Source: an uncultured Nitrososphaeraceae archaeon | GTDB lineage: Archaea; Thermoproteota; Nitrososphaeria; Nitrososphaerales; Nitrososphaeraceae | DNA: 52,773 bases | Assembly: GCA_963825865.1 (NCBI GenBank) | Contig: CAWGVG010000042.1 | Span: forward strand, 1-52,773 | Direction of reading: 5' to 3' | Shown here: positions 4 through 25,631 of the stretch, in pieces | Layout: each line of letters begins with the position of its first letter | Numbering within the stretch: position 1 is the stretch's first letter | Program-made: the position numbers and the translations under genes | Notes under the pieces: model-generated | Told to the model about the DNA's origin: nothing | What the model saw: the letters and a program-made list of their open reading frames with translations, nothing else | Database searches by the model: none

Positions 4-1028
4 TGTTTAACTACACAGATGGGTAACAATTTTGATTACCTACATAGGTTACACTTTCTTGCTTCCTTTTTGTATATGTCTTAGATTTAATTAACCTTTT
101 CTACAAACCTTTCAGAAGGAGTAAGACCATTTATTCCACCATGTTCCCTAGTTTCATTATATGCTTTGACAAACATATCATACCTTAGTTTTCCATCATC
201 AATACTTGTTATTTCTTCAACTGTCAAGAACTCATTCTTTACAATCTTGTTATATGCTTCTATCTTTCCTTGTAACTGTGGATATGAATTTGGAATTGGT
301 TTATCCTTTATGTTATTCTTATATAGAAAGTGTTTGAATAGTTTAGATGTAAACTGCTTACCGTTGTCATGCATAACTTTCCTGGGCTTTCCGTTATCCA
401 TAATCCACTCCTCTAGGAACTCAAAACATCAATGCTCCTCTTTCTTTCAGACCACTTGCTAGCAACTTTTCTTGAACAGTCATCTATACAGCTTATCATG
501 TAATTTCTTGTGCTAGAACAGCGTACGTAAAATGGTCCAAGTATATCCATTTGAAGCATGTCATTTGGATGTTTCATTGCAAATCGCTTATACTTTCTAT
601 TATTCTTTACCTTACAGTTTAGAACGTTGAGAGTATGTTTTTTCAATGTCTTGTAGATGGTTCTACTGCTAAATGATACTCCAAGTCTTTTTAATCTGAA
701 CCTGATTCTACTAGTACAAAGGTCTTTAATCTTAAATCAAGTATTGTTTCTTCTATTTCTTTAGATACTTTGGTTTTGATGCTATGAGGCCTTCTAGATA
801 GTTTTCAACCCGTCTATTCCGTGCTCTATGTATCTATTTTTCCACTTGTAATATGTCTTCCTAGATATTTCGTATTTATTGCAAATATCGCTAATACTAT
901 TACCAGTCCATTCATGTTCATGAATGAGATTGAATTTTGTTCTAATTTCTATAGAGATTTCCACTTCCTAGCAGAAGTGTTAACTATGTCTGTAGACTAT
1001 ATTGTTACCTATGTTTGTAAGTACAACA
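4..1028 (-). mobile_element. IS481-family insertion sequence; transposase (about 87-964) split by frameshifts
   Basis: TGT...ACA ends with imperfect long inverted repeats (tgtttaactacacagatgggtaacaat vs reverse complement tgttgtacttacaaacataggtaacaat). N-terminal HTH (ISDICNKYEISRKTYYKWKNRY) and rve core (QMDILG, IDDCSR, HDNGKQF, PQLQGKIEAYN) spread over several frames. Confidence 0.85.
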
Positions 1029-5444: not shown

Positions 5445-5797
5445 TTATTATGATAGCGGAATCTATTACTTTTTTATACATGAGCGGTTATTCACCACTA
5501 CTGCTCTGTAAAGTTAAGGAAAAAGCTATATGCTCTAATTGATGAGATGATAAACTTCTCTGATGAAGATACTGGACAGTTATTACTTCATAGACGACAA
5601 TAAAATAACGGCTAAACTTTAGCAATGCTGGATTAAAGCAGGAAGGTGTCATCTCAGTTATAGCTTGTATGAAGGTTTCAGAATTTGCAACGTGAGAGAA
5701 GAAAAATTCATACTGCCTATATTACGATGATAATGAATTACTTTTTAAAACGTATTTTAAATAATTTTTTATTCTTCAGAATTTTAGTAAGGAGTCT

Positions 5798-6109
5798 TTA
5801 GAAGCAAATCATGCTAACAAGCATCAGATTTAGTTGAACCTTATGCCATAATTCTGAAAAGGAATTTGTTATTTCAGTTATTTTTGATTGATTTAATTTT
5901 TCCAATAATTGTAGACATTCCAATATATTAGCACGGGCTTCAATATTATTTGCATCATAAGAAAGTGCTTTTACAAAACATATTATAGCCTCTTCACATT
6001 TTTCCAGTCTCCGAAGGCAAACTCCTTTGTTATTCCATGTTGGTATGAGTATCTTTGGATCAGAAGTGTTGTCTATAGCCTTTTCAAAATACCTGGCGCT
6101 AAACTCGTT
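5798..6109 (-). pseudogene. TPR protein fragment without a start codon
   Basis: Manual translation: YFEKAIDNTSDPKILIPTWNNKGVCLRRLEKCEEAIICFVKALSYDANNIEA. The frame opens exactly at the solo CRISPR-like repeat. Confidence 0.7.
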
Positions 6110-6138
6110 TTATCAACCTATAATAGTTCGATTCAAAC
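6109..6138 (-). CRISPR. Solo degenerate CRISPR repeat
   Basis: 22-nt CCTATAATAGTTCGATTCAAAC identical to the repeat at 5025; the handle end is degenerate (tttatcaa). Confidence 0.6.
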
Positions 6139-6551
6139 CCTCCGGTATTGGTAGCAGTGTGTTAACATTCTATCGTTTGTATAATCGTAAATGCCAAACA
6201 CATTCAGCAAGCCTTTTATCTTCTGTTCATGTTCTATTTTGGCTTGAGTAGAACACCATGAAGAACCACCATACGTTTTAGCTTGCTATAGGTCCTTTTT
6301 CATCATGTAAGAACCAAACTATATCACCACCCCCAGGACAGTCTTTATTCCTTGATATTCAGATGTAAGAGAATTATTTCCTACTTATCATCATAAGATC
6401 AAGTCGATCATCACTAGACCACTTACAATTGTTATTCGCTAACCAAATAGTGTAAACTCCACCTATTCTAACGCAGTCAATCATTCATAACAAGTGTTTT
6501 CGCACATTTTGACATTAAAATGGTTAGATTGTTCAGAAATTTTTAGAATGC

Positions 6552-6571
6552 CTAATTACGCAAGAGATCTA
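6552..6571. mobile_element. Isolated IS terminal inverted repeat (end of a MITE or IS remnant)
   Basis: ctaattacgcaagagatcta is the exact reverse complement of tagatctcttgcgtaattag at the left end of the IS at 28324. Confidence 0.7.
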
Positions 6572-6663
6572 TACCAATTAACATTAATTCGCTAACACTT
6601 TGCTAATATTTTGAGTTGAAATACGTCGATAGTTGTTAGCGAACTTTTGTTAACTGGTATAGA
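6568..6663. mobile_element. 96-bp MITE-like element with 30-bp imperfect terminal inverted repeats
   Basis: tctataccaattaacattaattcgctaaca vs reverse complement of the right end tctataccagttaacaaaagttcgctaaca. Confidence 0.65.
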
Positions 6664-8351
6664 ATATAGATACCTGTAATTAAGAAGCAGTATTTACGGA
6701 TTTTCTCTATAAAAGGCACTAAACTCACTGAAATAACACAGGAGCAAACAGAGTAAACAATTATTAAAGATAGGTATGAGAGCACACAAATTCAGACATT
6801 ATCATAAAGATTACCTTGCAATGAAGAGAGGAACATATGACTATTCAAAACTTTAGAATATTCCATAAGCACGGAACTCTACTTGAATCAGGATGGTATG
6901 ACACACAAACCTGGGGATCTCTGCATAAAGCTTGGATTGGTTATGTAACTACAAAAATAAAGATGAATATGATAAACAATTACACTATGCTTCAATTATT
7001 CAAAAACTACAAAAAGAACTTGATATAGAGGTAAGGGGGTCTATTTGTGTTGTTAGTAATAGTAGTAAGTGAAAGATATTCATCTAAAGAAGACATTTCA
7101 TCCTTATCTGAATTGGTTTTAATGTTTAAAAGATTATTGGCTCATGAACTGTTCCTGCATTTTTTAACGAGATAACCTGATGAACTTATTCTGTATTCCT
7201 TAACAGTTTTGCTTCTCTCTGTAATAACATACAGGGTTTATTGCACTCATAACAGAAGGTGTTCAGATCTCTCCGTAGGGTATTGAAATTAGACGCATAT
7301 GGATTATGTGCTGCATATATATGATCACAATACTTACATAATGTCTGGGCAAGCTTCTCTTCTTCTTCTGTGTCTTTATTGAAGCTCACTTTGCAATAAA
7401 ACTGTGTGTAACTGCCCGCAATTTAGCGTATTTCTGCAAATTCTTTTTTTATTCAGCTTTGACTTGTGAAAGCAGCAATAGATACAATAAAAGGAAAAAC
7501 TTTGGAGCAAAAGGAAACATGCGACACTTCTTAGAAATAGGACGACTAAATAAATCAGCTGGTCTATTGGGGTGATGCGCGAAAGTTTTGATGCGCAGAG
7601 GAGCCCTCAAGGTGCACTTCTTGTAGGGAATCAGGATGAGGTAGCTGAAGATAATTAGGCACAGCCCTAGGCATCTCTAGAATTACATTTATGATGAATC
7701 CCGCCTCGTTACCTCATGAGAAACTGACGCAAGCTACCAAACTAATAGGTACACGTATCGCACCAGCACTTCGTGAGGTGGGAGAACAGCAGGTGAAGGT
7801 ATTGTAACGCAATATTATTGGTTGATCTATACTAACAAAGTAAATTGTATCATCTCCCTTCATATGTCGGAACACCGGAGAATATCTGTAGCCTATTCAC
7901 GCAACAGGAGTGTCGAAAGCCCCGCTGCTTTTTATTGACTAAATGTATAATTCTCCAAAAGTTGTTAACGAAGTAGGTTCGTAAATCTTACAAGATAGAA
8001 GATATCGTAAAAACAAAATTCAAGGATAATTCGTTTTTTACATAGGTGTGTTGTTTAGTATTACTAGTATTATCATTATTGTTCAATATTCAGGCTCATA
8101 ATAATTGTCATCTTCTGGTATATCACAATTGTAATCGTAAGCAAAATCATGTATGTCAATGCCTGAGCTAAATCTATCAGGTAAGCTTGCAGTGTGTATT
8201 ATCCTTTCAAGCTTACCTTCTGCAGTATAAACAGCCTTTTTATCGACAAACTCATGCATTTGTTATAATACCTTGCACTATAAAATTGCCTAATTATTAT
8301 ATTTTCTTATTATATCAACAATAACTACAGCAAACTTGTATTCAATGCGAG

Positions 8352-8930
8352 CTATCCCCTGTGATTCATATATGTAACATCGATACTTGTTAACTGGTCA
8401 TTACGCCATGTGGTTTTAGCTCCACCCCAAGTATGTACCATATTATATTTTTCACCTTGACCAGTATGAGTGAATTCAAAGTACTTTTTCCATCCATCAT
8501 TGTTTGGTATGCCTGTATTCAGATCAATTGGATCTTCATTGAAGTATGCAACTAAATCACGTACACTATGGTCTGGTCTTACCATGCTTACTACTTTGCA
8601 GCCAAACCATCTATCTCCTAAAGGTTTATGTATTGTATAGCTTGACTTCATGACTAAGCTCATATTCTGGATGAATAAATTCAAGTGACTACATTTTTTG
8701 AACCATCATATACTAAATTGCATTCCAGCACAAGGCTTCATCGTTCTGTGGAATTCCACGTTTATGTTCGCCGCCAAACTAAGCTTTTAATCATGTCTGC
8801 GTATTACAACATATTGATAGGAAGTCGAAGACCTTTTCCTTCTGGTCCAAGTTTGCATAATTGTATGTTGCCAATGTTCAAGCCTTGTACAACATTGGCG
8901 GGAAATACTAAAAGTGTATCCAAAGGGATC
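8352..8930 (-). pseudogene. Fragmented thaumarchaeal beta-sandwich (carbohydrate-binding-like) protein
   Basis: RWFGCKVV...NNDGW...TWGGAKTTWRND pattern seen in Nitrososphaerales exported proteins; upstream part broken across frames. Confidence 0.4.
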
Positions 8931-9037
8931 ATTTTTACTTTTATTTACAAAATCAAGATAATATTTATTAAAAAGGATAACAACTATACAACAGTGCTTC
9001 ACTTTCCTCAGTTGCCGATAATTCGAGGGAAACGAGT

Positions 9038-11174
9038 ATGTCAGGGATAGTACAGTCTACACTAGAAAAGTTATGTAAAGATTTTATAGACAATCATACC
9101 GATCTAGATTGGTCAACAGTTCCAAGAATAAAACAAAATGTGCAGCATCTAAGAGATTTCAGTAAAGATGCTACTAAGGAGAAAGGTAATTATCAAAGGA
9201 AGAGGCCTGAAATCATAGTTTTAATTGAGGAGCTAGAAGGGATTAAAAATGCTTCAGTATCTGTAGTGGCAGGTATAGATGGGAAAATAAGGCTAGGTCA
9301 AGATATTACTAGTATTACTAATACGCTTATATCAAATTTCGATGATTTTAGAAAAAAGGTGAGCGAGCAACTATATCAAAAAGTCCAAGAAGTTAACAAT
9401 GAAACTTCAACAGACACCGTGGAGGAGCTATCGGATCAATGGGCACAAGCTTTTTTAGGAAAGTATTTCGAAATTATTTTGCATGTAGGATCAGCAGAAA
9501 ATATTTTCACTACCCTGAGTTCAGTCGTATCGCCATTAAAATACATGATACATTACAGAGATACTTTGTACCTAATTTCAGAATCTATCAAAATGCATTA
9601 TTTAACCAGATCTGACGCTTGTCCTGATGAACGAATAAAGACACAAATTATGAATCTCAGTAATTATATTAACTCCATAGTTGACAATTATTCACAATCA
9701 AATGATATTGGTACTAAACGTGCGCGAATTATTCTACATCACCCTAAATTAAAGGAGAGTATTCAGGAAATTTACATACAAACTCTTATGAGGTGTGGGC
9801 ATGTTTGACTGATACTCTATTATCCGATACATTATTATCCCAAAATCTTAAAGACGTCTTGTTCAAGACTATAGAAACTGCGCTTCTATATATGCAATCG
9901 GATAAAATATCGTCGACTAGCGAATTTATTCCCTTGTTAGATGAATTGTTTATCACGGTTCGTAGAGAAGCAACACGACATATAGACAAGCTGGAATTTA
10001 AAGAAGCAGCAGAAATATATTATTTAGTTGCAAAAATCTTAAGTGAAATTGCAAAAGGGGTTAAAAATATTGAGATTTCAGAAATACTTCAATCCAATTC
10101 AGCAACTTGGTTTATACAGGCTAATTCAGGATTTGAATATGCGATTCGTTCTTTACTTGTAAATGCGCATAAGTTAGAATTTGAGAACAAAAAAGAAGAT
10201 GCAACTATTATAAAGGATAACGCATCTGTTCTAAAATTCGAAATAGACAATGGGTTTCTAAGAAAAAGATTAAATCTGGAAGCTCATAAGTTCATAAACC
10301 AAAGCAAAGACAAAATCTTAGAAGGTCAATCGGAATTAATTGCTCCTACTGTCAGAGGTTTTGTCAATAGAGAATCTCCACAACTTTCAGAAAAGGCAAC
10401 AAATTATCTCATAGTGTTGCTTGATGCATATGAACAATTAAGAAATAGTAAAATAGGTCTGAGAGAATTTTGGCAGTCGGAAAATAAAGGAAATCTTTTT
10501 GGTGCCCTCAAGTACCTTTTAGAACTAACACCACAAAATATGGTCTGAATATTAAAGATCAGGTACTGATAGATGATTTGCTAACGACCATACCACAATT
10601 ATTGCAAGAGATGGCTGAAAATCCATCGGCAGATAAACGAAACGAGCATATTATTAGAACTGAATTTGAAAGAGCAATTTCATTAATTAAGCGGTTTGCT
10701 CGAACTTATCATCAAGAAATAAATTACAACTTTGAAAGTATAAAAGAAAAGCAAATAAATTTATCTGATAAAAGGGAGCAGATCGAAATTATTGCTGATA
10801 GGTTTTACGATCTGCTTGAGACCATGCATTATTTGAGATACGGAGTTTCTAGTGTTCTGGTTAGTCCGTATAATGAGGCGTTGTTGAAGACTAGCTCTTT
10901 TACATATGTTATGTCCACTCAAAAGTTTCGGCAGGACTATAGTAAACTTTTAGACGATATCAAGTTCCATTTTCCCAATATATGGGATGAGATATCAGAC
11001 ATCGCTCAAAAATTATCTTCAACTATTGGAAAATTAGAGGAATGTTTTAGTCAAATTAGAGATCGAAGCAAAGATATTCGTGCTATTATGAGCGAGATAC
11101 GACGAACATTTAGGATATTATGGGAAAATGTCATAGTTGGTCTTTTGGTTGATCGTGAGTTGTACATTACATAG
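9038..11174 (+). CDS. Large helical protein of unknown family (about 712 aa if ORFs 9038-9808, 9793-10548 and 10578-11174 are joined); residues 9-119 identical to the CHAT protein C-terminus
   Basis: Adding one A in the A-runs near 9746-9748 and 10535-10538 joins the three ORFs (HHPK-IKGEYSGN; TPQ-KYGLNIKD). Contains TPR-like helices (FKEAAEIYYLVA). Confidence 0.6.
9063..9394 (+). repeat. 332-bp perfect inverted repeat, copy 1 (coding)
   Basis: Reverse complement of 12919-13250; no mismatch found on reading both copies. Confidence 0.97.
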
Positions 11175-11195
11175 TTGGGATATAGGTGATAGCAT

Positions 11196-12738
11196 TTGGA
11201 ACTTCGTGATTCTTCCAGCATAGAGGAAATTGCAGAAATTTTAGATGGAATTGTTACTACTAATGGTAAAAAGGGTCTAGATTACTTCCGGGAAGGCAAA
11301 TACCAAGAGGCTGCGGTTGAATATGACACTATAGCACGAGCTTATAACGATGCTTATAATAGAGCCATTCAGGTAATGACTGAGTCTACTGCAGATTCTA
11401 CAAGAATAAAAGAAATTTTTCGTAAGGGCAGAAAGTTTTGGGAGGAGAGTGCACAGGTATGCCGAAAAGAGGATTTGCTGCGTAAAACGAATGAGCTAAA
11501 AAATGAAGCCTATAAGCTTCAGCTAGGTGGTCTTTACGAGGAGTCGATAAAATTGTTTAAAGAGGCTCTGGAATTAAATGCTACGGACGACCCCGAGATT
11601 TGCATGTACCCTTGGAAATTCATATTTTCACCTATCAAAATATTATGAGGCCATAAAATGTTATGATAAGGCTTTACAGATTGATCCTAACAATGCACTA
11701 GCATGGTATTGGAAGGGATATTCCTTTTATGAGCTAGGAAATAATGAAGAAGCCATAAAATGTTATGATAAGGCTTTACAGATTGAGCCCATTTTTCTTA
11801 ACGCGTTAATAGCTAAGGCAAATTCCTTTTATGAGCTAGGAAATAATGAAGAAGCCATAAAATGTTATGATAAGGCTTTACAGATTGATCCTAACAATGC
11901 ACTAGCATGGCATTTGAAGGGATATTCCTTTTATGAGCTAGGAAATAATGAAGAAGCCATAAAATGTTATGATAAGGCTTTACAGATTGATCCTAATAAC
12001 GATGTAATATTGAATAACAAAGCATGGTCATTTGCTATGATCGGAAGAGGCTTAGAAGCACTACGTATTATTAAAAAAAGTATAGAAATAAATCCCAAGG
12101 TAAGTGATTATTTTGATACAATGGGTTTTGTTTATTATAAACTGGGAGAATATGAGGAATCCATAAAGCATTATAATAAAGCAACAGAGATTGATGCTAA
12201 TAATTACTTATTCTGGACTCACAAGGCTTCCTCATTCCAGAAATTAAATAGACATAAAGAGGCACAGGACTGTTTGAATAGGGCCGAGGTTTTAAAAATT
12301 GAAGCGAAAAAGCAAAAGAGTTTAAAGAGAGAACTTCTTCTTAATTCTCTCTTCACTGGAACTGAAACAGCTGTACAAGAGCCAGAAGAGACGCGGCAAG
12401 ATTTAATCGATCAGCTAAACGCACCAGACCAAATTAAAATAAAGCAAGATGTTCAAACTAGAGGAGATGGTTGGTATCACTGGTCGGTCTTTTTAGACGC
12501 CGGGGAAAGAGGAGATAGTATACTTGATCAAATAGAATCTGTCAAATATGATTTGCACCCAACCTTTCCTGACCCAGAACCGACAAAAGATAGAAACAAT
12601 AAGTTTATACTTAATGCGACCGGTTGGGGAGAATTTGAAATAAAGGCTAATATTACTCTTAAGGATGGAAGAACAATTACAAAATATCATTGGCTTGCTC
12701 TAAGGAATAATATGACAAGTAGTACGGTTTCTAGATAA
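11196..12738 (+). CDS. TPR-repeat protein with C-terminal prokaryotic YEATS (pYEATS) domain (about 513 aa after correcting one frameshift)
   Basis: TPR consensus EAIKCYDKALQIDP. C-terminal YHWSVFLD...IESVKYDLHPTFPDP...F.L.ATGWGEFEI is the YEATS signature. Removing one C in tacccttgga (about 11609) joins the two ORFs. AGGTGA Shine-Dalgarno-like site before the TTG. Confidence 0.85.
11650..11990 (+). repeat. 102-bp tandem TPR-coding repeats, near-identical at DNA level
   Basis: gccataaaatgttatgataaggctttacagattga at 11650, 11752, 11854 and 11956. Confidence 0.95.
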
Positions 12739-12912
12739 ACAATAAAAATTTATGACCGTTTCACTTCTAGCTGTTGAACTGAATTTAGAAAATTATTAGA
12801 AATCAATTAACGAACCAAATTGTCATCATGTGTGTAGTTGTATTCTTGATCCTCTCATCCTTTTCCTCTTCTTTACTTTTATGATCCAAAACTAGACTAA
12901 TTCGTAATATCC

Positions 12913-14397
12913 TTAATCAACTTCTTGGACTTTTTGATATAGTTGCTCGCTCACCTTTTTTCTAAAATCATCGAAATTTGATATAAGCGTATTAGTAATA
13001 CTAGTAATATCTTGACCTAGCCTTATTTTCCCATCTATACCTGCCACTACAGATACTGAAGCATTTTTAATCCCTTCTAGCTCCTCAATTAAAACTATGA
13101 TTTCAGGCCTCTTCCTTTGATAATTACCTTTCTCCTTAGTAGCATCTTTACTGAAATCTCTTAGATGCTGCACATTTTGTTTTATTCTTGGAACTGTTGA
13201 CCAATCTAGATCGGTATGATTGTCTATAAAATCTTTACATAACTTTTCTAATGGATTTAACTTATTACGTAGAATTCTTCCTTCCCCGTTACACGTGTAT
13301 ATTACTGGTGAAATAAACTCTGCCGTATTCCCGAATTTATAATAGTAGTAAAGCCTTTCTTGCGTACTGACAATAGCTTCCTCCGCGTCATAATCCTTAA
13401 TGAATTCTTCATAAAATTGAGTGGAGATATAAGGGCCAGCCTCATCATGGATCTTGAATTGCATTCCAATAACACAGGGAATATTTTTTGTTTCCATGAG
13501 CTGTCTAGCCAGACCATTAAAACCTCTTTCAACTCCACTTTCACAGGAGTTTAGCATAATTAGTGCCAAATGCTTAGTACGCTTGTATTCGATAAACATG
13601 CTGGCAAATTTCGAGTCGTCGACTGGAATTTCATGGCCCCTTTCATTACATAACAATATTGTTCCCTTCTTACTTTGATCATTAAAATCGCTGTGTCCTA
13701 TGTAATGTATTATATTATAATTATTGTTTTTTAATACTTCTAAGATCTTATCTAGTGTGGGTTTTCCTAGCTCTACTGTACCATTTGCAAGGGTCTTTCG
13801 TTCATCTTCTAATTCATTTGAAAGTATATGAACTTCTACTTTATCTAGTAGGTGTTTTTCTATTATGGTCCTGATTTGTTCCCTCTCAGGCCTAGCATAT
13901 TTCAGCTGCTTTTTTTTAGGTGTCGATGAAATTATCAGAATTCTTAACCTATCAGAAATATACTTTGCTCCAATATCTTCTGGTACACTTCCATGCTTCC
14001 GAACTATCCTAATTTTATTATTCGGACCGAGGAAAGATGTGCCATTGTGCAGCAATTCCCATGGAAGAGATTGTAAATATGGCTCATCAATATCCAAAAC
14101 AAGTCTTAAGTGGTCTTCAGCATGCGCAATGCTGTTGAAATGCGCTAAGAAATTAGCATAAATCTCTTTATCATTAAACAGAAGTTTGTACAAATACTTC
14201 CCAATTTTTGTGACGTGGGATATAGCATCTTTATTACTGTCTGTATTGGTAATAGAACGCTTAGCCTTGCTTAAGAGAGATCGGATTATTCTGGTATCAA
14301 TTAATATGTTTTGACCTGATATTTCCATGCGGCTATTAGTATACGCAGTAATTGTATTGCCTGCTCCCAACTTAATCTTGAATATTGTAGTGGCCAT
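12913..14397 (-). CDS. CHAT-domain (caspase-like) cysteine protease
   Basis: LQSLPWELL, LRILIISSTP, catalytic His in IIHYIGHS, catalytic Cys in LIMLNSCES, CVIGMQFKI, FYEEF. Intact 494 aa ORF. Confidence 0.93.
   Translation of the reverse strand: MATTIFKIKLGAGNTITAYTNSRMEISGQNILIDTRIIRSLLSKAKRSITNTDSNKDAISHVTKIGKYLYKLLFNDKEIYANFLAHFNSIAHAEDHLRLVLDIDEPYLQSLPWELLHNGTSFLGPNNKIRIVRKHGSVPEDIGAKYISDRLRILIISSTPKKKQLKYARPEREQIRTIIEKHLLDKVEVHILSNELEDERKTLANGTVELGKPTLDKILEVLKNNNYNIIHYIGHSDFNDQSKKGTILLCNERGHEIPVDDSKFASMFIEYKRTKHLALIMLNSCESGVERGFNGLARQLMETKNIPCVIGMQFKIHDEAGPYISTQFYEEFIKDYDAEEAIVSTQERLYYYYKFGNTAEFISPVIYTCNGEGRILRNKLNPLEKLCKDFIDNHTDLDWSTVPRIKQNVQHLRDFSKDATKEKGNYQRKRPEIIVLIEELEGIKNASVSVVAGIDGKIRLGQDITSITNTLISNFDDFRKKVSEQLYQKVQEVD
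12919..13250 (-). repeat. 332-bp perfect inverted repeat, copy 2 (CHAT residues 383-493)
   Basis: Same 111-aa peptide LEKLCKDF...QKVQEV in both ORFs; the CHAT ORF stops one residue after the repeat. Confidence 0.97.
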
Positions 14398-14561
14398 TAT
14401 AGCATCTTTTGATTACGTCAAATCAATATAGCACAAAGGTATTTAATAAGAATGCCTTTGTAATGGCAAGAAATTCAACAGGTACAATCCGGCGAAAAAT
14501 GAAATTAAAGCAGATAATCAATATGTTTGGTTATATCGATAGCCATGGAATTTATCAAAAT

Positions 14562-15296
14562 TTACACGAAGTCGCCATAGTCTACCGCACCATATCTTGC
14601 GGGCCTGCGAGCCTCTCCCCCCCTAAAATCTGCACTCCTCATAAATCGCTTTCTAATTCCCCTGGCCTTGAATAGCGGCGTAAGGTTTTGTGCAGCGATA
14701 ATTCTTGTTGCAATGTCTGATTCTTTAGCTATTTGAAAGTTTGCACCTATATTTACAAGGTCACGTGATGACAATGGCATATTTCCTTGAACTTGAAGAT
14801 CAATCTGCGCATTCTTTCCTCGAGAAATAAGAATAGTGGCCTTCTCTGCCAGTACTACTTCTGTGATGGCTACCATATTAGTGTCCCAAATGCCCGACTT
14901 ATAACGTGACAATACTTCTTGTTTCAGATAATTCTCATCCTTGATTTTTTCAGAGCTACATCCAGATAACTGGAACATTATAGCATTCTGTTTTTTGAAT
15001 TTAACGGTTAGCCCAGCATTTGCTTGCACAATATTCGAGCCAACTAATGGAGCTTGGCCCGCAGCCTTAACATCTATTGAAACGGCATTTGAAGAAGAGT
15101 AATCGAAGCCAGCTTTAACAGTACCTTTCGTCGTTTGAAAAGCAATTCCTAGTTCACGTAAAGTTGTCAGAGGTTGGTACTCAAAGTCTATAATTCTACC
15201 TACATCACCTGGGCTAACCCTCAATATTGGAAGCCACGTAGCACAATAGTTCGTTTCATCTTTAATTTCTTTGATATATTGTTTTCTGATACTCAT
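14562..15296 (-). CDS. Putative gasdermin-like pore-forming protein
   Basis: 244 aa. N-terminal Y-x-A-T-W-L-P...GDVG, amphipathic beta-hairpin segments (VSIDVKA, AGLTVKF, AQIDLQV), VAITEVV strand, LTPLF and a short Arg-rich tail. Sits directly upstream of a CHAT protease. Fold assignment is inference. Confidence 0.6.
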   Translation of the reverse strand: MSIRKQYIKEIKDETNYCATWLPILRVSPGDVGRIIDFEYQPLTTLRELGIAFQTTKGTVKAGFDYSSSNAVSIDVKAAGQAPLVGSNIVQANAGLTVKFKKQNAIMFQLSGCSSEKIKDENYLKQEVLSRYKSGIWDTNMVAITEVVLAEKATILISRGKNAQIDLQVQGNMPLSSRDLVNIGANFQIAKESDIATRIIAAQNLTPLFKARGIRKRFMRSADFRGGEARRPARYGAVDYGDFV

Positions 15297-15878: not shown

Positions 15879-16300
15879 CTATAGTTTCCATTGTACTCGG
15901 ATATAGTAATTAGCCTGTTTTGTATTCAACGCCTGGGTTGTATTTACTGCACGAACAAAGAATTCTGTTCTGTCTTGACCATTGTTATCCTTATATTCTA
16001 CATAGACAGGTCTTGGGCTTTTTTCGACCTGGATTTTAGCTACAGTCTTGTCATCATACTCAAGGCGTTCCAATCTTAAGAGCGACATTATTTCTGCTCC
16101 AATGTGTTTCCGAACAAGGTTAACTAAGTGCTGTGACCATCCATCCCAATCTTTCCTTTCTTTAAATAATTCGTAGTCACGTTCAATTCCTAGAACATTA
16201 CCCTTGTCATCTACTCCTATAATCAACTTTCCTCCATCAGTATTCATAAAAGCGGCTATCGTCTTAAGTATTGAAAGTGCGAGAATACTATCTTGACTTG
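15879..16300 (-). pseudogene. Schlafen/AlbA_2 domain protein, 5'-truncated
   Basis: LKTIAAFMNTDGGKLIIGVDDKGNVLGIERD motif; the frame extends upstream of the called ATG without a start. Confidence 0.85.
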
Positions 16301-16319: not shown

Positions 16320-17840
16320 ATCCTTCTATGAAAATGCATCTCTTAAGATACAAAAGCACCCAGCATATGATCAGGTTTTCAATGGTAAAAGAAAAGTCTC
16401 CGAAGAGATCAGACGCTTCATCAAAACAACATTTAGTAACACTAGAATAAATGTAGCCTACCTCAAGCCCTTGAACAACTTCATTAGAGAATACAGAGGA
16501 TTATCTATCTTTTCGACTAATTATGACCTTTGTATTGAACAGTTTTGTAAAGAAAATGGAAGAACGTTCGTCGATGGTTTCAATCCGTATTGGAATCCCG
16601 AAACTGAATATAGAAAAAAATGTAATGTCGATGTGTGCCTCTATAAACTACATGGCTCCATAACTTGGTATAAGATCTGATGGAGGAGAATATACTCGCA
16701 GTGACATCATAGTAAGTGATATACGTCCAATCATTGTAGGTGGTCAAGAAGTTGTGCCATTGATCTTGTATCCTGGTCGGAAGCTTAGAATATATCGAAC
16801 CTATAATTTATATGCTATCTGAAATCAAAAAGCAGATTGAACAAGCTAAATACGTGTTGTTGTTGGTTACTCATTTAAAGATGAGCATCTGGCAAGACTT
16901 TTTAGATATGTAGCGGCAAGAAACCGTAAATTAATTCTGTTCTTAATCAGTCCAAGTGCTTATCATATCTATGACAAGAAACTACGGTATCTAGAAGATG
17001 AACTATTCCAAAAAACCTTTACGAGAGCTTTCAGTCATATAGGTTTCAGCAAATCACCCATACAATCGTATCTTGATGGAAGAGTCATTTGTCTAAACTA
17101 TAAATTTAAGAAGGTATTTCCACTGCTAAAAAACCACTATCTAAAGAATCTAAAAGATGCTCAGATTAAAGAAGATGAAACCGAATATGGAGATGTATCT
17201 GATGAGGCCAAATGGAAAGATTGTCTAAGGCATTACATAGATTGTGAATACATAGAAAAGCTGAAAAAAATGATGAAGGAAATTACATGGTATGAATCAA
17301 TAACCAAAGACAGCATTTTCTGGCTTGAAATATGTTTCAAAGGGTTACTCAGTGCTGTGTCATGTAATGATATAAACATCAAAACACGATGGATAGAACA
17401 CTTTGAGAAAGACTTGTGAATTCTTCTTGATTGATAAATTTATGGTTGAGCCGGAGGCAAGTTACTTCATATGGTAGCATATCACCAAAGATAACCCCAC
17501 TGGTTTAACTGAGTGTTTTGAACGTACAATCGTCCCATTTATAGACAATAAGTTAACAATCCCTAAATCAATTCCAAAATAGAATAAAAAAATTAGGCGA
17601 CTATCTAGCGACTATCTAGTTCTGTGGCAGAAAGAACCTATGACATATGACAGATATTGTGGATTGCGAAGCAGTTATGAAAATGAGATTAAAGAGCTTA
17701 AGGAGAAGGTTAGTCTTTATAAGCAGAACCAGACTTCGAAAGAACAACAAGTAGTTAAGGATATCATAATGCAAATTGAAGATAAAGAATTGCAAAAGAT
17801 ATTTGGTGGCTCCGTTCTTGCATTTGATATTTCAAGCTGA
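16320..17840 (+). pseudogene. SIR2-like (SIR2_2) domain protein, fragmented
   Basis: IFSTNYDLCIE, LYKLHGSITW and VGYSFKDEHL motifs across frames. N-terminal GAGxS motif is missing. Confidence 0.8.
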
Positions 17841-22477: not shown

Positions 22478-23594
22478 GGGGTTGTTGCCTAATTTGATAT
22501 CGCATATGGTGTCACCTTTATTCCCAGTTTGTTTGCACATTGTAGTCTGTTAAGGACTTCTAGGTTCCAGCCTATTGATTTAATTAATCCAAATCTTTTC
22601 TGATTGTTCTTTAATCTGAATGTGCAGTATAGCTGATGATGATGATGTTTAGTTTCTTCAGCTCCAAATATTCCTTCTATCAATCCTCTATAACGATATA
22701 TTGATGCATTGAATATCTTTGCAGCCTTCTTTCTGTATTTGTTCTTCTTACTACTGCTATTCTTGTTCTTGGAGTTTTTTCTCTGCTTGATATTTGGAAG
22801 CATGTTCATGTTAAACACTGACTGGAAGTTCTTGTTGCCATCATAACCTCTGTCACCATTGAATGTTGAACCTGCAAAGTCTAATCTATATTTCTTCAAT
22901 CTGTTTAGCATTGTTCGGAGTACTGGAGAATCGTGTGTTTTCTTACTGGTAAGTCGTGTATTAAGTATTATGAGATGATCAAGTATCCCTGTGATATGCC
23001 ATTTCAGATACTGTTTTACCCTTATCTTTTCGAATTTCTTACTACTACTATTTTTGATAAATCGTACTTCGTATCCGTACCTGTTTGTCTCTACACCGGT
23101 GCTATCTGATGCGAGAATACCCTTCTTCCAGCCTGATTCTTTCAAACATAGATAAGCTGACCATATTAGTACACGTTCAAGATATATCAGCGGTATCTTC
23201 TTGAATGTACGTGATATCCATGTATGATCTGGATATGGCTCGTTATTCCATGGCAAATTAAGAGAGGGTATTATATTCTGTATATCTCTGTACGTTGAAC
23301 CGAAAACAACCATCAATATACAAATACAGACAAGTTTTTCCCAAGAATGAATTGGTTTCCTTCCTCTATTACTGTTCTTCTTTGAAGTAGGAGGAGGATT
23401 TTCTTTGACCAGAGAAACTATATTTTCGATAAGCATATCTCGTTCTAGGGTATGTGCTAGATGGTAACACAACCAGTAACCATCTTTCCTCTTGTGCTTG
23501 CAAGTCAATAAGAGGGTGCATACCCTTTCTAAGCTAAATCGAAAACCGTGAAATCATATTTACAGTCAATTAAAACGAATTAGGCAACAACCCC
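22478..23594 (-). mobile_element. Intact IS5/IS4-superfamily element with 17-bp TIR and 9-bp target-site duplication
   Basis: ggggttgttgcctaatt / aattaggcaacaacccc; CATTGGACC duplicated at 22469-22477 and 23595-23603. Confidence 0.93.
22489..23508 (-). CDS. DDE transposase (DDE_Tnp_1 type)
   Basis: PDHTWI, DSTG, DRGYD and YRYRGLIEGIFG (YREK-like) motifs. Confidence 0.9.
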   Translation of the reverse strand: MTCKHKRKDGYWLCYHLAHTLERDMLIENIVSLVKENPPPTSKKNSNRGRKPIHSWEKLVCICILMVVFGSTYRDIQNIIPSLNLPWNNEPYPDHTWISRTFKKIPLIYLERVLIWSAYLCLKESGWKKGILASDSTGVETNRYGYEVRFIKNSSSKKFEKIRVKQYLKWHITGILDHLIILNTRLTSKKTHDSPVLRTMLNRLKKYRLDFAGSTFNGDRGYDGNKNFQSVFNMNMLPNIKQRKNSKNKNSSSKKNKYRKKAAKIFNASIYRYRGLIEGIFGAEETKHHHHQLYCTFRLKNNQKRFGLIKSIGWNLEVLNRLQCANKLGIKVTPYAISN

Positions 23595-24835: not shown

Positions 24836-25631
24836 CTATATCTTGATGATATCGTACAATTCTCTGTTATCAGTCTTCAAAGTCCTTGGCTCTTTTAATG
24901 GATTGTCAAAACTAATTGGTAAATAACCTGTATTCGTAGCCCTATTAAGACTGTCATTTATCTTTGTTTCAGGGTCAAAATCTAATTCTTTTAATTCATT
25001 GCACCTCTCTAACCATTGATATATCTTAAAAACTTTAGTGTATCTTAAAAACTTATCATCAAATGACAAATGTTTTACATTAATAAAATAAGGTGCAAGG
25101 ATTCTCCAGATATAGTATTTCCTATGTTCAGGAAATGGATTCTGTAAAAGTCGTTCAATCCAGTCAATAGATTTCTTTCGTGGTAATCTAGAATTCTTTT
25201 GTGCCATATACGCAGACTTCATTTTCTGACAAAAACGTGTGGGTTTTATTATTATGGTGTTTGAATACTTTTAAACCTTGGTCAATAAGGTATGACAAGA
25301 ACTTGCTATAAAGTAAATCTGCAGTTAATTTGGAAGTACCATTCCATTTCTGTATGACTTTAACCTGACTTGAATTCAAATTATTTCCATTTTTTGAATT
25401 ATATGAACCAGGTATCCTTAACAAACAGTTCTTGAATGACACAGTATGATAATGTTCTGAATCCGCCTTTCCATTAGATAGATGGTATTCTGCAAACCTT
25501 AGGAATTCCTTTGAAGGTTCTTTGAAGTTTCTAAACTCTGACATGTTTTCTAAAATAATATTTTCAGATTCTACAGTAGTAGGTATATAGAAATGATACC
25601 CATTGCCTGTCCAGGTCGGAAAAAAATACAT
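24836..25631 (-). pseudogene. Archaeo-eukaryotic primase-like protein with PriX-like C-terminus, 5'-truncated and frameshifted
   Basis: WTGNGYHFY (AEP motif II), LLRIPGSYNSK (motif III) and WIERLLQ...WRILAPY C-terminal domain. Confidence 0.75.

What the first reader, a model, noticed from the sequence alone, without database searches (positions are those of the whole stretch)
9063..13250. Perfect 332-bp coding inverted repeat that could flip 3.5 kb and rebuild the protease gene
Seen: 9063-9394 and 12919-13250 are exact reverse complements, both in frame. CHAT stops one residue after the repeat and the partner ORF starts 8 codons before it. Recombination between the copies inverts 9395-12918. 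That gives an in-frame ~1086-aa CHAT fusion, makes gasdermin-like, CHAT-fusion and TPR-pYEATS co-directional, and leaves a stand-alone 120-aa copy of the domain. Inference: (a) a phase-variable on/off switch for a toxic system, (b) a homotypic adaptor domain kept identical by conversion, or (c) an inversion scar that broke one ancestral gene. No dedicated invertase is adjacent; the nearest recombinase is the broken integrase at 18.7-19.7 kb.
Basis: partly seen in the sequence, partly recalled or inferred. Interest (0 to 1): 0.9.

Follow-up and report, generated by a model that had tools for sequence, protein, structure and literature searches.

The report
Shared adaptor domain, not a switch
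The perfect inverted repeat is real, but it is two copies of one small docking domain carried by a caspase-like protease and by its partner protein in an archaeal defence-like gene cluster, an arrangement also found in distant archaea, rather than a demonstrated DNA flip-switch.

Summary
The exact 332-bp inverted repeat (9063-9394 / 12919-13250) is confirmed and has only these two copies in the genome. It encodes one ~111-aa helical domain ("D") at the C-end of a CHAT protease (494 aa) and at the N-end of a 256-aa protein X. X is a complete gene: three 251-260-aa homologues and a 258-aa ORF in a distant archaeon (G180) match it end to end. G180 carries the same module on one strand (CHAT-D, LamG/Ig-membrane-D, D-X, pYEATS protein), with D copies 83-93% identical in DNA while X itself is only about 22-28% identical between the two genomes. 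A D profile found 23 proteins: 10 CHAT-D, 9 membrane proteins with a cytoplasmic C-terminal D, 3 D-X, 1 other. Option (c), a broken ancestral gene, is rejected. A flip would give a 630-aa fusion, not 1086 aa, a form seen in no homologue; no recombinase gene lies in the window. Whether both orientations occur could not be tested: no available contig spans a repeat. The assembly is full of frameshifts. "Gasdermin-like" is unverified.

The parts
9063..9394 (+). Repeat copy L: codes residues 9-119 of protein X (domain D)
   Evidence: Exact reverse complement of 12919-13250; D = first helical bundle of the X model, residues 8-122
12919..13250 (-). Repeat copy R: codes the last 111 residues but one of the CHAT protease (domain D)
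   Evidence: matches the D profile, positions 9-121
9038..9808 (+). Gene X, 256 aa: D plus a second four-helix bundle (Xc)
   Evidence: Aligned end to end with P0002 (260 aa), P0004 (251), P0006 (252) and with a 258-aa ORF of G180; AF2 pLDDT 86.5; no Pfam or PADLOC family
12913..14397 (-). CHAT (caspase-like) protease with C-terminal D, 494 aa
   Evidence: PF12770 73.4 bits, residues 67-350; H231, H235, C285 invariant in 8 of 8 aligned CHAT-D proteins; 25% identical to the G180 CHAT-D
14562..15296 (-). 244-aa protein just upstream of CHAT on the same strand: candidate protease substrate or effector; 'gasdermin-like' unverified
   Evidence: 7 homologues of 247-251 aa at 43-64% identity, none with a Pfam domain; no Pfam or PDB-sequence match; Atlas lead only
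9793..11174 (+). Gene Y, read in two frames in this assembly (9793-10548, 10578-11174)
   Evidence: N-terminal part 29.5% identical over 105 aa to the N-terminus of the G180 pYEATS protein; a contig of run X3 lacks 2 nt at 10516, which joins the two frames
11196..12738 (+). TPR repeats plus C-terminal pYEATS domain, read in two frames (11196-11648, 11578-12738)
   Evidence: TPR families and PF20305 pYEATS 59.9 bits; C-terminus 45% identical to the G180 pYEATS protein
12739..12918 (.). 180-bp spacer between the converging pYEATS and CHAT genes
   Evidence: No long ORF; stops in all frames

Best explanation
The repeat is the coding sequence of one small all-helical adaptor domain (D, ~111 aa) that two proteins of one conflict or defence-type module share. 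These are a CHAT caspase-like protease, which carries D at its C-end, and protein X, which carries D at its N-end ahead of a second helical bundle. X is followed by a Y/TPR/pYEATS protein. Shown: the domain, its terminal position, and its recurrence on CHAT proteases, on single-pass membrane proteins with PKD, LamG or beta-propeller ectodomains, and on X-type proteins. Also shown: conserved gene order in a distant archaeon, and D copies of one locus that are far more alike than D copies of different lineages. Inferred: D copies bind each other (homotypic docking), bringing the protease to the X/pYEATS (and, elsewhere, membrane-receptor) components, after which the protease cleaves a target, possibly the neighbouring 244-aa protein. 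Inferred: the exact DNA identity reflects recent gene conversion, or a recent copy of the domain, between the two genes. Because the copies are inverted here, a crossover would flip 9395-12918 as a by-product and give non-canonical products.
For: X is a whole gene with the ends of its homologues. G180 has, on one strand, CHAT-D 493 aa, Laminin_G_3/Ig-membrane-D 663 aa, D-X 258 aa, pYEATS protein 313 aa. Cross-genome homology holds for CHAT (E 8e-23), X (profile E 3.5e-24), Y N-terminus (E 4e-4) and pYEATS (E 2e-31). D copies in G180 are 93%, 85% and 83% identical in DNA with random flanks, and codons 49-91 are identical between X and CHAT. D of G000 is only 14-18% identical to the G180 D copies in protein. 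The D profile found 23 proteins: 10 CHAT, 9 ectodomain-membrane-D, 3 X-type, 1 other. D is C-terminal (0-18 residues follow) in 19 of 19 CHAT and receptor-type hits and N-terminal in X and P0023. 9 of 9 receptor-type hits have a hydrophobic segment 18-44 residues before D; 0 of 10 CHAT or X-type proteins have one. The repeat's edges match the domain's edges in the model. Two runs of one study carry the same two changes at the mirrored repeat positions (9152/9153 on the contig tied to the outer left flank, 13161/13160 on the contig tied to the inner right flank). Passages read in Kaur et al. 2020 and 2021 say adaptor domains of adjacent genes tend to be most alike and act by homotypic interaction.
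Against: No binding was shown. D matches no Pfam or PADLOC family. Its model is a generic four-helix bundle with no match that stands out. Among the Bathyarchaeota-type sequences D groups mainly by protein type rather than by locus, and the G180 CHAT D is as close to D of orthologous CHAT proteins (80-83%) as to D of its own X (82%); homogenisation there is at most patchy. Only two genomes give gene context. The contexts of P0002, P0004 and P0006 could not be fetched. Exact identity might be overstated if assembly polishing evened out near-identical copies; short-read contigs cover most of the repeat without a difference but cannot tell the copies apart. The 244-aa neighbour is not found in G180, so it is not a constant part of the module.
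Confidence: 0.8

Rival explanations
1. Phase-variable switch: recombination between the two copies flips 9395-12918 at a useful rate and toggles the module between a split form (CHAT-D plus D-X) and a fused form (630-aa CHAT-D-Xc plus a free 120-aa D).
For: A 332-bp exact inverted repeat is a good substrate for homologous recombination. The swap is in frame. The flipped form puts the 244-aa gene, CHAT and Y/TPR/pYEATS on one strand, as in G180.
Against: No tyrosine or serine recombinase gene in the window (0 of 28 PF00589 matches and 0 of 1 PF00239 match lie on this contig). The assembled orientation gives the two canonical gene forms. No fusion was seen among the 10 CHAT-D hits or the 4 homologues with X's C-terminal half. 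In G180 the D copies are direct, so no flip is possible there. One orientation was assembled.
Confidence: 0.07
2. Inversion scar: one ancestral CHAT-D-X-... gene was broken by an inversion that duplicated 332 bp at its ends.
For: The geometry fits a staggered-break inversion. CHAT stops one codon after the repeat.
Against: Homologues of X start and stop where X does. CHAT-D homologues end 0-18 residues after D. G180 has the two as separate neighbouring genes.
Confidence: 0.03
3. Assembly effect: the two copies exist but are not truly identical, or the middle segment's orientation was chosen by the assembler from a mixed population.
For: The assembly carries many frameshifts: only 876 ORFs of >=300 aa in 4.98 Mb and rpoB matched in pieces. 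It also differs by indels from short-read contigs. A contig of run X1 ends at 13159, next to the positions that vary in other runs.
Against: ~1-kb repeats at 96-99.8% identity are kept apart inside contigs, so repeats were spanned. Contigs of runs X1 and X4 match 9273-9427 and 12919-13159 with no difference.
Confidence: 0.1

Closest known systems
Effector-associated domains (EADs) and bacterial Death-like domains of prokaryotic conflict systems (Kaur, Burroughs, Iyer, Aravind; eLife 2020 PMC7159879 and 2021 PMC8195603; passages read)
   Same: A small, non-catalytic, mostly helical domain at a protein end. Several copies sit in one locus, fused to different effector or signalling parts, caspase-like peptidases among them. 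Copies of adjacent genes are most alike. The proposed role is homotypic recruitment.
   Different: D hits none of the Pfam families at E <= 10. The module has no NTPase core (no STAND, MoxR-vWA or GTPase) in either locus. It is archaeal. Identity here is exact at DNA level and inverted. The papers' supplementary lists could not be seen and may hold this domain.
CARD-like domains in bacterial gasdermin systems (Wein et al., preprint PMC10312443; passages read)
   Same: An adaptor domain on a protease is needed to activate a cell-death effector encoded next to it. A second copy sits on the sensor protein.
   Different: There the domain is an N-terminal six-helix Death fold on a trypsin-like protease and the sensor is an NLR-like ATPase. 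Here it is a C-terminal four-helix bundle on a CHAT protease, and no ATPase or verified gasdermin is present.
Protease-effector modules (bGSDM, Pepco, EACC1, MBL; Evans et al., bioRxiv 10.1101/2025.11.14.688446; abstract and sections 4, 8, 9 read)
   Same: A small protein is encoded directly beside a caspase-like protease. The logic of a latent effector licensed by cleavage may apply to the 244-aa neighbour.
   Different: The 244-aa protein matches none of these families above noise (Pepco E 0.028, below cut-off). Cleavage is not shown.
Invertible DNA switches: invertons, shufflons, intragenic invertons (Chanin et al., bioRxiv 10.1101/2023.03.11.532203; search listing and start of abstract only)
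   Same: Inverted repeats inside coding sequence could swap protein ends.
   Different: As I recall, those use short repeats and a dedicated invertase. Here the repeat is 332 bp, equals a whole protein domain, and no invertase gene is nearby.
Metazoan death receptor - adaptor - caspase chain (FAS/FADD/caspase-8, as drawn in Kaur et al. 2021, Figure 1 legend)
   Same: By analogy only: ectodomain-membrane-adaptor proteins and a caspase-fold protease carry the same adaptor domain.
   Different: No homology of D to the Death fold was found. No receptor-type D protein is in the window's genome: it holds only 2 D matches.

Membership tests
EAD-type homotypic adaptor domains (EAD principle) | Small non-catalytic domain at the N- or C-end of the protein | tested here: met
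   D is C-terminal in 19 of 19 CHAT and receptor-type hits and N-terminal in X and P0023; ~111 aa
EAD-type homotypic adaptor domains (EAD principle) | Several copies in one locus, fused to different effector or signalling parts | tested here: met
   G000: CHAT-D and D-X. G180: CHAT-D, LamG/Ig-membrane-D, D-X
EAD-type homotypic adaptor domains (EAD principle) | Copies of one locus more alike than copies of other genomes | tested here: met
   100% in G000 and 83-93% DNA identity in G180, against 14-18% protein identity between the two lineages. Within the Bathyarchaeota-type set the signal is weak
EAD-type homotypic adaptor domains (EAD principle) | Copies bind each other | not testable with these tools
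   Needs a binding assay (pull-down, SEC-MALS, ITC)
Named EAD and bDLD families in Pfam | Sequence match to one of the curated models | tested here: not met
   No such family for X, the CHAT tail or the G180 X even at E <= 10
Death-fold superfamily (CARD, PYD, DD) | Six-helix bundle of about 90 aa | tested here: inconclusive
   The model has five helices, three of them 22-32 residues long. No Foldseek match at E <= 0.001. VIA rows for D are FAT and talin-type four-helix bundles, Z 10.5-11.4, within the noise level stated for helical models
CHAT / caspase-fold peptidase (PF12770) | Pfam match over cut-off and conserved His and Cys | tested here: met
   73.4 bits against a cut-off of 24; H235 and C285 invariant in 8 of 8. 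That these are the catalytic pair is from general knowledge of the fold
Bacterial gasdermin (for 14562-15296) | Sequence or fold match to gasdermin | tested here: inconclusive
   No Pfam hit for 8 of 8 family members at E <= 1 (I cannot tell whether the library copy holds PF26164). No gasdermin among PDB sequences at E <= 10. The single-sequence model failed, pLDDT 29.8. The top Atlas cluster carries Bact_GSDM on 12% of its members
Bacterial gasdermin (for 14562-15296) | Encoded next to a protease that cleaves off a short C-terminal tail | tested here: inconclusive
   Adjacent to and co-directional with CHAT. The alignment shows a variable stretch before a conserved C-terminal VDY-DF motif. 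Cleavage not testable here
Site-specific invertible element (inverton, shufflon) | Dedicated invertase gene nearby | tested here: not met
   None of the 28 PF00589 matches, nor the single PF00239 match, lies on this contig. ORFs at 17.6-20 kb gave no recombinase family
Site-specific invertible element (inverton, shufflon) | Both orientations present in reads | not testable with these tools
   Only short contigs of up to 410 nt were available; none spans a repeat with both flanks

The most novel reading that the evidence does not exclude
The exact inverted copies are a working homologous-recombination switch. Archaeal recombination both keeps the two D copies identical and flips the 3.5-kb segment in part of the population. 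This converts a split caspase-like protease/adaptor pair into a 630-aa CHAT-D-Xc fusion plus a free 120-aa D, a recombinase-free way to arm or disarm a suicide module. In the same family, membrane receptors with the same cytoplasmic D would make this an archaeal counterpart of the death receptor-adaptor-caspase chain.
Probability: 0.08. Interest if true: 0.8.

Novelty: new member of a known kind. Interest (0 to 1): 0.5.

Why it matters
It turns an apparent DNA switch into a clearer and testable finding. The finding is a previously unannotated adaptor domain that links caspase-like CHAT proteases, single-pass membrane proteins with sensor-like ectodomains, and a two-bundle partner protein next to a pYEATS protein. 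Source names in the hits point to archaea from at least two classes. If D copies do bind each other, this extends the adaptor logic of bacterial and animal cell-death pathways to archaea and gives a compact module for bench work. The exact 332-bp identity is an extreme case of adaptor copies of one locus staying alike. It also marks a place where gene conversion, and perhaps inversion, can be measured directly with long reads.

Tried and rejected
- Stop-codon reassignment as the cause of the short ORFs: reading TGA, TAG or TAA as sense does not restore long ORFs.
- Orientation test with public runs: 8 runs were listed, best share of words 0.24. Four were laid, but all are short contigs and none spans a repeat with both flanks. 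Parts without cover, for example 9636-9902 with the X/Y junction, could not be checked.
- Complex prediction on X plus the CHAT tail: no verdict (score 0.00, controls not run, after queue refusals). This is no evidence either way.
- Single-sequence AF2 of the 244-aa protein: pLDDT 29.8, unusable.
- Atlas search for X: no usable hit.
- Rfam on the window: no match.
- PADLOC: only TPR-type hits on the TPR protein.
- The search for related loci: two alignments too divergent. P0006 and alignment A4 found nothing in metagenome contigs, and A4 found nothing in genome contigs. The gene contexts of P0002, P0004 and P0006 therefore stay unknown.
- Seven weak profile hits in the phylum sample (E 7.6e-4 to 7.8e-3) were not examined. 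Two weak hits in the class of G180 lie in ORFs with no CHAT or X features and were dropped.
- Literature searches found no description of this domain. They were keyword searches and supplements were closed.
Full report
OBSERVATION. The window is a whole contig (C42) of a 62-contig, 4.98-Mb assembly.
- Positions 9063-9394 are the exact reverse complement of 12919-13250, 332 of 332. The tool's 335-nt arm includes three more bases with one mismatch.
- Identity ends abruptly on all four sides.
- The genome holds only these two copies.
- Of 30 same-contig inverted pairs of at least 150 bp and 95% identity, this is the only exact one and the closest spaced. Most others are ~1-kb IS-like copies at 96-99.8%.
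- Both copies are in frame. The CHAT ORF (12913-14397, minus strand, 494 aa) ends one codon after the repeat, and ORF 9038-9808 (plus strand, 256 aa, here 'X') starts eight codons before it.

STATE OF THE ASSEMBLY.
- The genome has only 876 stop-to-stop ORFs of 300 aa or more, and one of 1000 or more. No stop-codon reassignment cures this.
- An rpoB model matches in pieces that lie in ORFs of 305 and 255 aa (it is a bacterial model on what is probably an archaeal genome, so the match is partial anyway).
- Many ~1-kb repeats are resolved inside contigs.
- Short-read contigs from public runs differ from the window by small indels: AA after 8682, 2 nt at 10516, 1 nt at 14481.
- I infer a long-read assembly with residual indel errors, or many real pseudogenes; I cannot tell which.
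- The 2-nt difference at 10516 in run X3 joins ORFs 9793-10548 and 10578-11174 into one frame. At least that break is therefore not shared by a close strain.

ARE THERE REALLY TWO COPIES? Yes.
- Contigs bridge the outer left edge (X2 record 11, 9029-9367), the inner left edge (X4 record 24, 9273-9427, no difference) and the inner right edge (X3 record 19, 12794-13203).
- A database protein fragment (P0003, 169 aa) reads from the CHAT C-terminal part into D. It may not be independent of this assembly.
- No record spans a whole repeat with both flanks. The orientation of the middle segment, and any mixture of orientations, could not be tested.
- A contig of run X1 begins exactly at 12919 and ends at 13159, next to positions that vary in other runs. 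I leave that unexplained.

WHAT THE REPEAT ENCODES.
- A search of 1.84 billion representative proteins with X gave six hits. Two are near-identical fragments (P0001, P0003). Three are proteins of 251-260 aa (P0002, P0004, P0006) that align with X from about residue 6 to about residue 252, sharing its start and its stop. One is a 131-aa piece of the C-terminal half (P0005).
- X is therefore a complete gene, and the stop at 9806-9808 is a real end, not a frameshift.
- The repeat is residues 9-119 of X and the last 111 residues but one of CHAT.
- With a 17-row alignment, AlphaFold2 models X at pLDDT 86.5 as two helical bundles: D (residues 8-122) and Xc (130-254). The repeat's edges are the domain's edges.
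- Foldseek finds nothing at E <= 0.001.
- VIA-align gives generic four-helix bundles: FAT domain at Z 11.4 and talin R3 at Z 10.5 for D, and designed bundles at Z 13.4 for Xc. These lie within the level the tool calls common for helical models.
- No Pfam or PADLOC family matches D or X.

THE SAME MODULE ELSEWHERE. A profile of X was searched in 401 genomes sampled from the phylum. It hit G000 and, convincingly, one other genome, G180 (E 3.5e-24, plus a second match of the D part at E 3.9e-4). Seven further hits at E 7.6e-4 to 7.8e-3 were not examined. On G180 contig C30, all on one strand, lie:
- CHAT-D, 493 aa.
- A Laminin_G_3/Ig protein with a hydrophobic segment and a C-terminal D, 663 aa.
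- D-X, 258 aa.
- A 313-aa protein with a C-terminal pYEATS domain.
- A 427-aa protein of no known family.

Between the two genomes:
- CHAT is 25% identical (E 8e-23).
- The pYEATS region is 45% identical.
- The N-terminus of Y matches the N-terminus of the G180 pYEATS protein (29.5% over 105 aa, E 4e-4).
- X matches weakly by BLASTP (22% over the C-terminal half) but strongly by profile.

The D copies of G180 are 93% (X against CHAT, 313 bp, no gaps), 85% and 83% identical in DNA, with random flanks. Codons 49-91 are identical between X and CHAT. A source names the G180 proteins 'Candidatus Bathyarchaeota archaeon'. G000 has a full-length match to the archaeal SSU model and is reported as the same phylum as G180.

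A D-only profile, searched among longer proteins, found 23:
- 10 with a CHAT domain; one is named by its source as from a Hodarchaeota archaeon.
- 9 with PKD, Laminin-G, Ig-like or PD40 beta-propeller domains.
- 3 of the X type.
- 1 (P0023) with an N-terminal D and a different C-terminal part.

D ends 0-18 residues before the C-terminus in 19 of 19 CHAT and receptor-type proteins. All 9 receptor-type proteins have a hydrophobic segment 18-44 residues before D, and none of the 10 CHAT or X-type proteins checked has one.

The module is rare:
- 0 of 200 genomes sampled from G000's own family.
- In the 401-genome sample of the class of G180, the only other matches were two weak hits, which I dropped after looking at them.
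- No DNA match to the locus in 40 relatives.

INTERPRETATION. These facts fit the published 'EAD principle' (Kaur et al. 2020, 2021; passages read).
- The principle describes small terminal, mostly helical adaptor domains that occur in several copies in a locus, are fused to different effectors including caspase-like peptidases, are most alike between adjacent genes, and are proposed to act by homotypic binding.
- A tested example of the same logic is the CARD-like domain of bacterial gasdermin systems (Wein et al., passages read).
- D is not one of the named families by sequence, so I file it as a new member of that kind.
- The exact identity in G000 is best read as recent gene conversion, or a recent copy of the domain.
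- In two runs of another study, the copy tied to the outer left flank and the copy tied to the inner right flank carry the same two changes at mirrored positions (9152/9153 and 13161/13160). This hints at concerted change but comes from low-depth contigs of different samples.
- Against strong homogenisation: in a tree of the Bathyarchaeota-type D domains they group mainly by protein type, and the G180 CHAT D is as close to D of orthologous CHAT proteins (80-83%) as to D of its own X (82%).

THE SWITCH IDEA.
- Flipping 9395-12918 in silico gives a 630-aa CHAT-D-Xc fusion and a 120-aa free D, not 1086 aa.
- No such fusion is among the 10 CHAT-D proteins or the 4 homologues that hold Xc.
- The assembled orientation gives both canonical genes.
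- The window holds no tyrosine or serine recombinase match. The ORFs at 17.6-20 kb give no integrase family. The window does hold transposase fragments: rve_3 at 87-401, HTH_32 at 2498-2896 and DDE_Tnp_1 at 22489-23508.
- In G180 the copies are direct, so no flip is possible there.
- A 332-bp exact inverted repeat can still recombine by general homologous recombination, so occasional inversion is likely as a by-product. A programmed role is unsupported but not excluded.

NEIGHBOURS.
- The CHAT protein keeps H231, H235 and C285, invariant in 8 of 8 aligned CHAT-D proteins.
- The 244-aa protein just upstream has 7 homologues of 247-251 aa. It has no match to Pfam, to PDB sequences or to Pepco above noise, and one weak Atlas lead to bacterial gasdermin. 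G180 has no homologue. Its role as the protease's target is inference from position, by analogy with protease-effector modules (Evans et al., abstract and sections 4, 8, 9 read).
- pYEATS is cited as a ligand-binding sensor domain of conflict systems in one passage of a 2026 preprint.
- Schlafen/AlbA_2 and SIR2_2 fragments at 15.9-16.7 kb suggest a defence island.

VERDICT. The best explanation is a shared adaptor domain (confidence 0.8). The broken-gene reading is rejected. The switch reading stays a minority possibility that long reads would settle.

Noticed in passing
whole genome (G000), e.g. C44:25001-27207: The assembly has very few long ORFs (876 of >=300 aa and 1 of >=1000 aa in 4.98 Mb), and rpoB matches in pieces. 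No stop-codon reassignment explains it. The cause is probably indel errors of a long-read assembly, or mass pseudogenisation.
   Followed up: partly
window 8339-8787: The stretch just left of the repeat (ORF 8352-8684, minus strand, no Pfam family) has three copies at 78-80% DNA identity in relative G013 and one at 73% in G016. It is single-copy in G000. Contigs of runs X2 and X3 carry an extra AA after 8682, which would change its frame.
   Followed up: no
window 11616-12095: Four tandem 102-bp units (one TPR each), 64-91% identical to the first over a 174-nt register, inside the TPR-pYEATS gene. One contig of run X2 shows a 'goes back 139' joint here, as expected for repeat slippage or misjoining.
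   Followed up: no
window 11172-11195: Three in-frame stops separate ORF 10578-11174 from ORF 11196-11648, although the G180 homologue joins a Y-like N-terminus and pYEATS in one 313-aa protein. Whether this is a real gene boundary or an assembly error is open.
   Followed up: partly
window 15879-16247 and 16471-16680: Fragments matching Schlafen/AlbA_2 (E 2.7e-11) and SIR2_2 (E 2.8e-7) lie next to the module, as in defence islands.
   Followed up: no
window 13159/13160 (mirror 9153/9154): An exact-match contig of run X1 starts at the repeat edge (12919) and stops at 13159, right beside the two positions that differ in runs X2 and X3. This may be a polymorphism between strains or between the two copies.
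   Followed up: no
proteins P0014 and P0030: A Bathyarchaeota-type CHAT-D protein (495 aa) and a 54%-identical homologue of the 244-aa neighbour both list a longest contig of 6665 bases, which hints that they sit on one contig. It could not be fetched.
   Followed up: no
L024 (G180:C30) 5738-7021, minus strand: A 427-aa protein with no Pfam family follows the pYEATS gene in the G180 module. It has no counterpart in the window.
   Followed up: no
window 87-401, 2498-2896, 22489-23508, 24836-25222: Transposase fragments (rve_3, HTH_32, DDE_Tnp_1) and a PriX-like ORF. The genome as a whole holds many ~1-kb IS-like repeats (30 inverted and 51 direct same-contig pairs).
   Followed up: no
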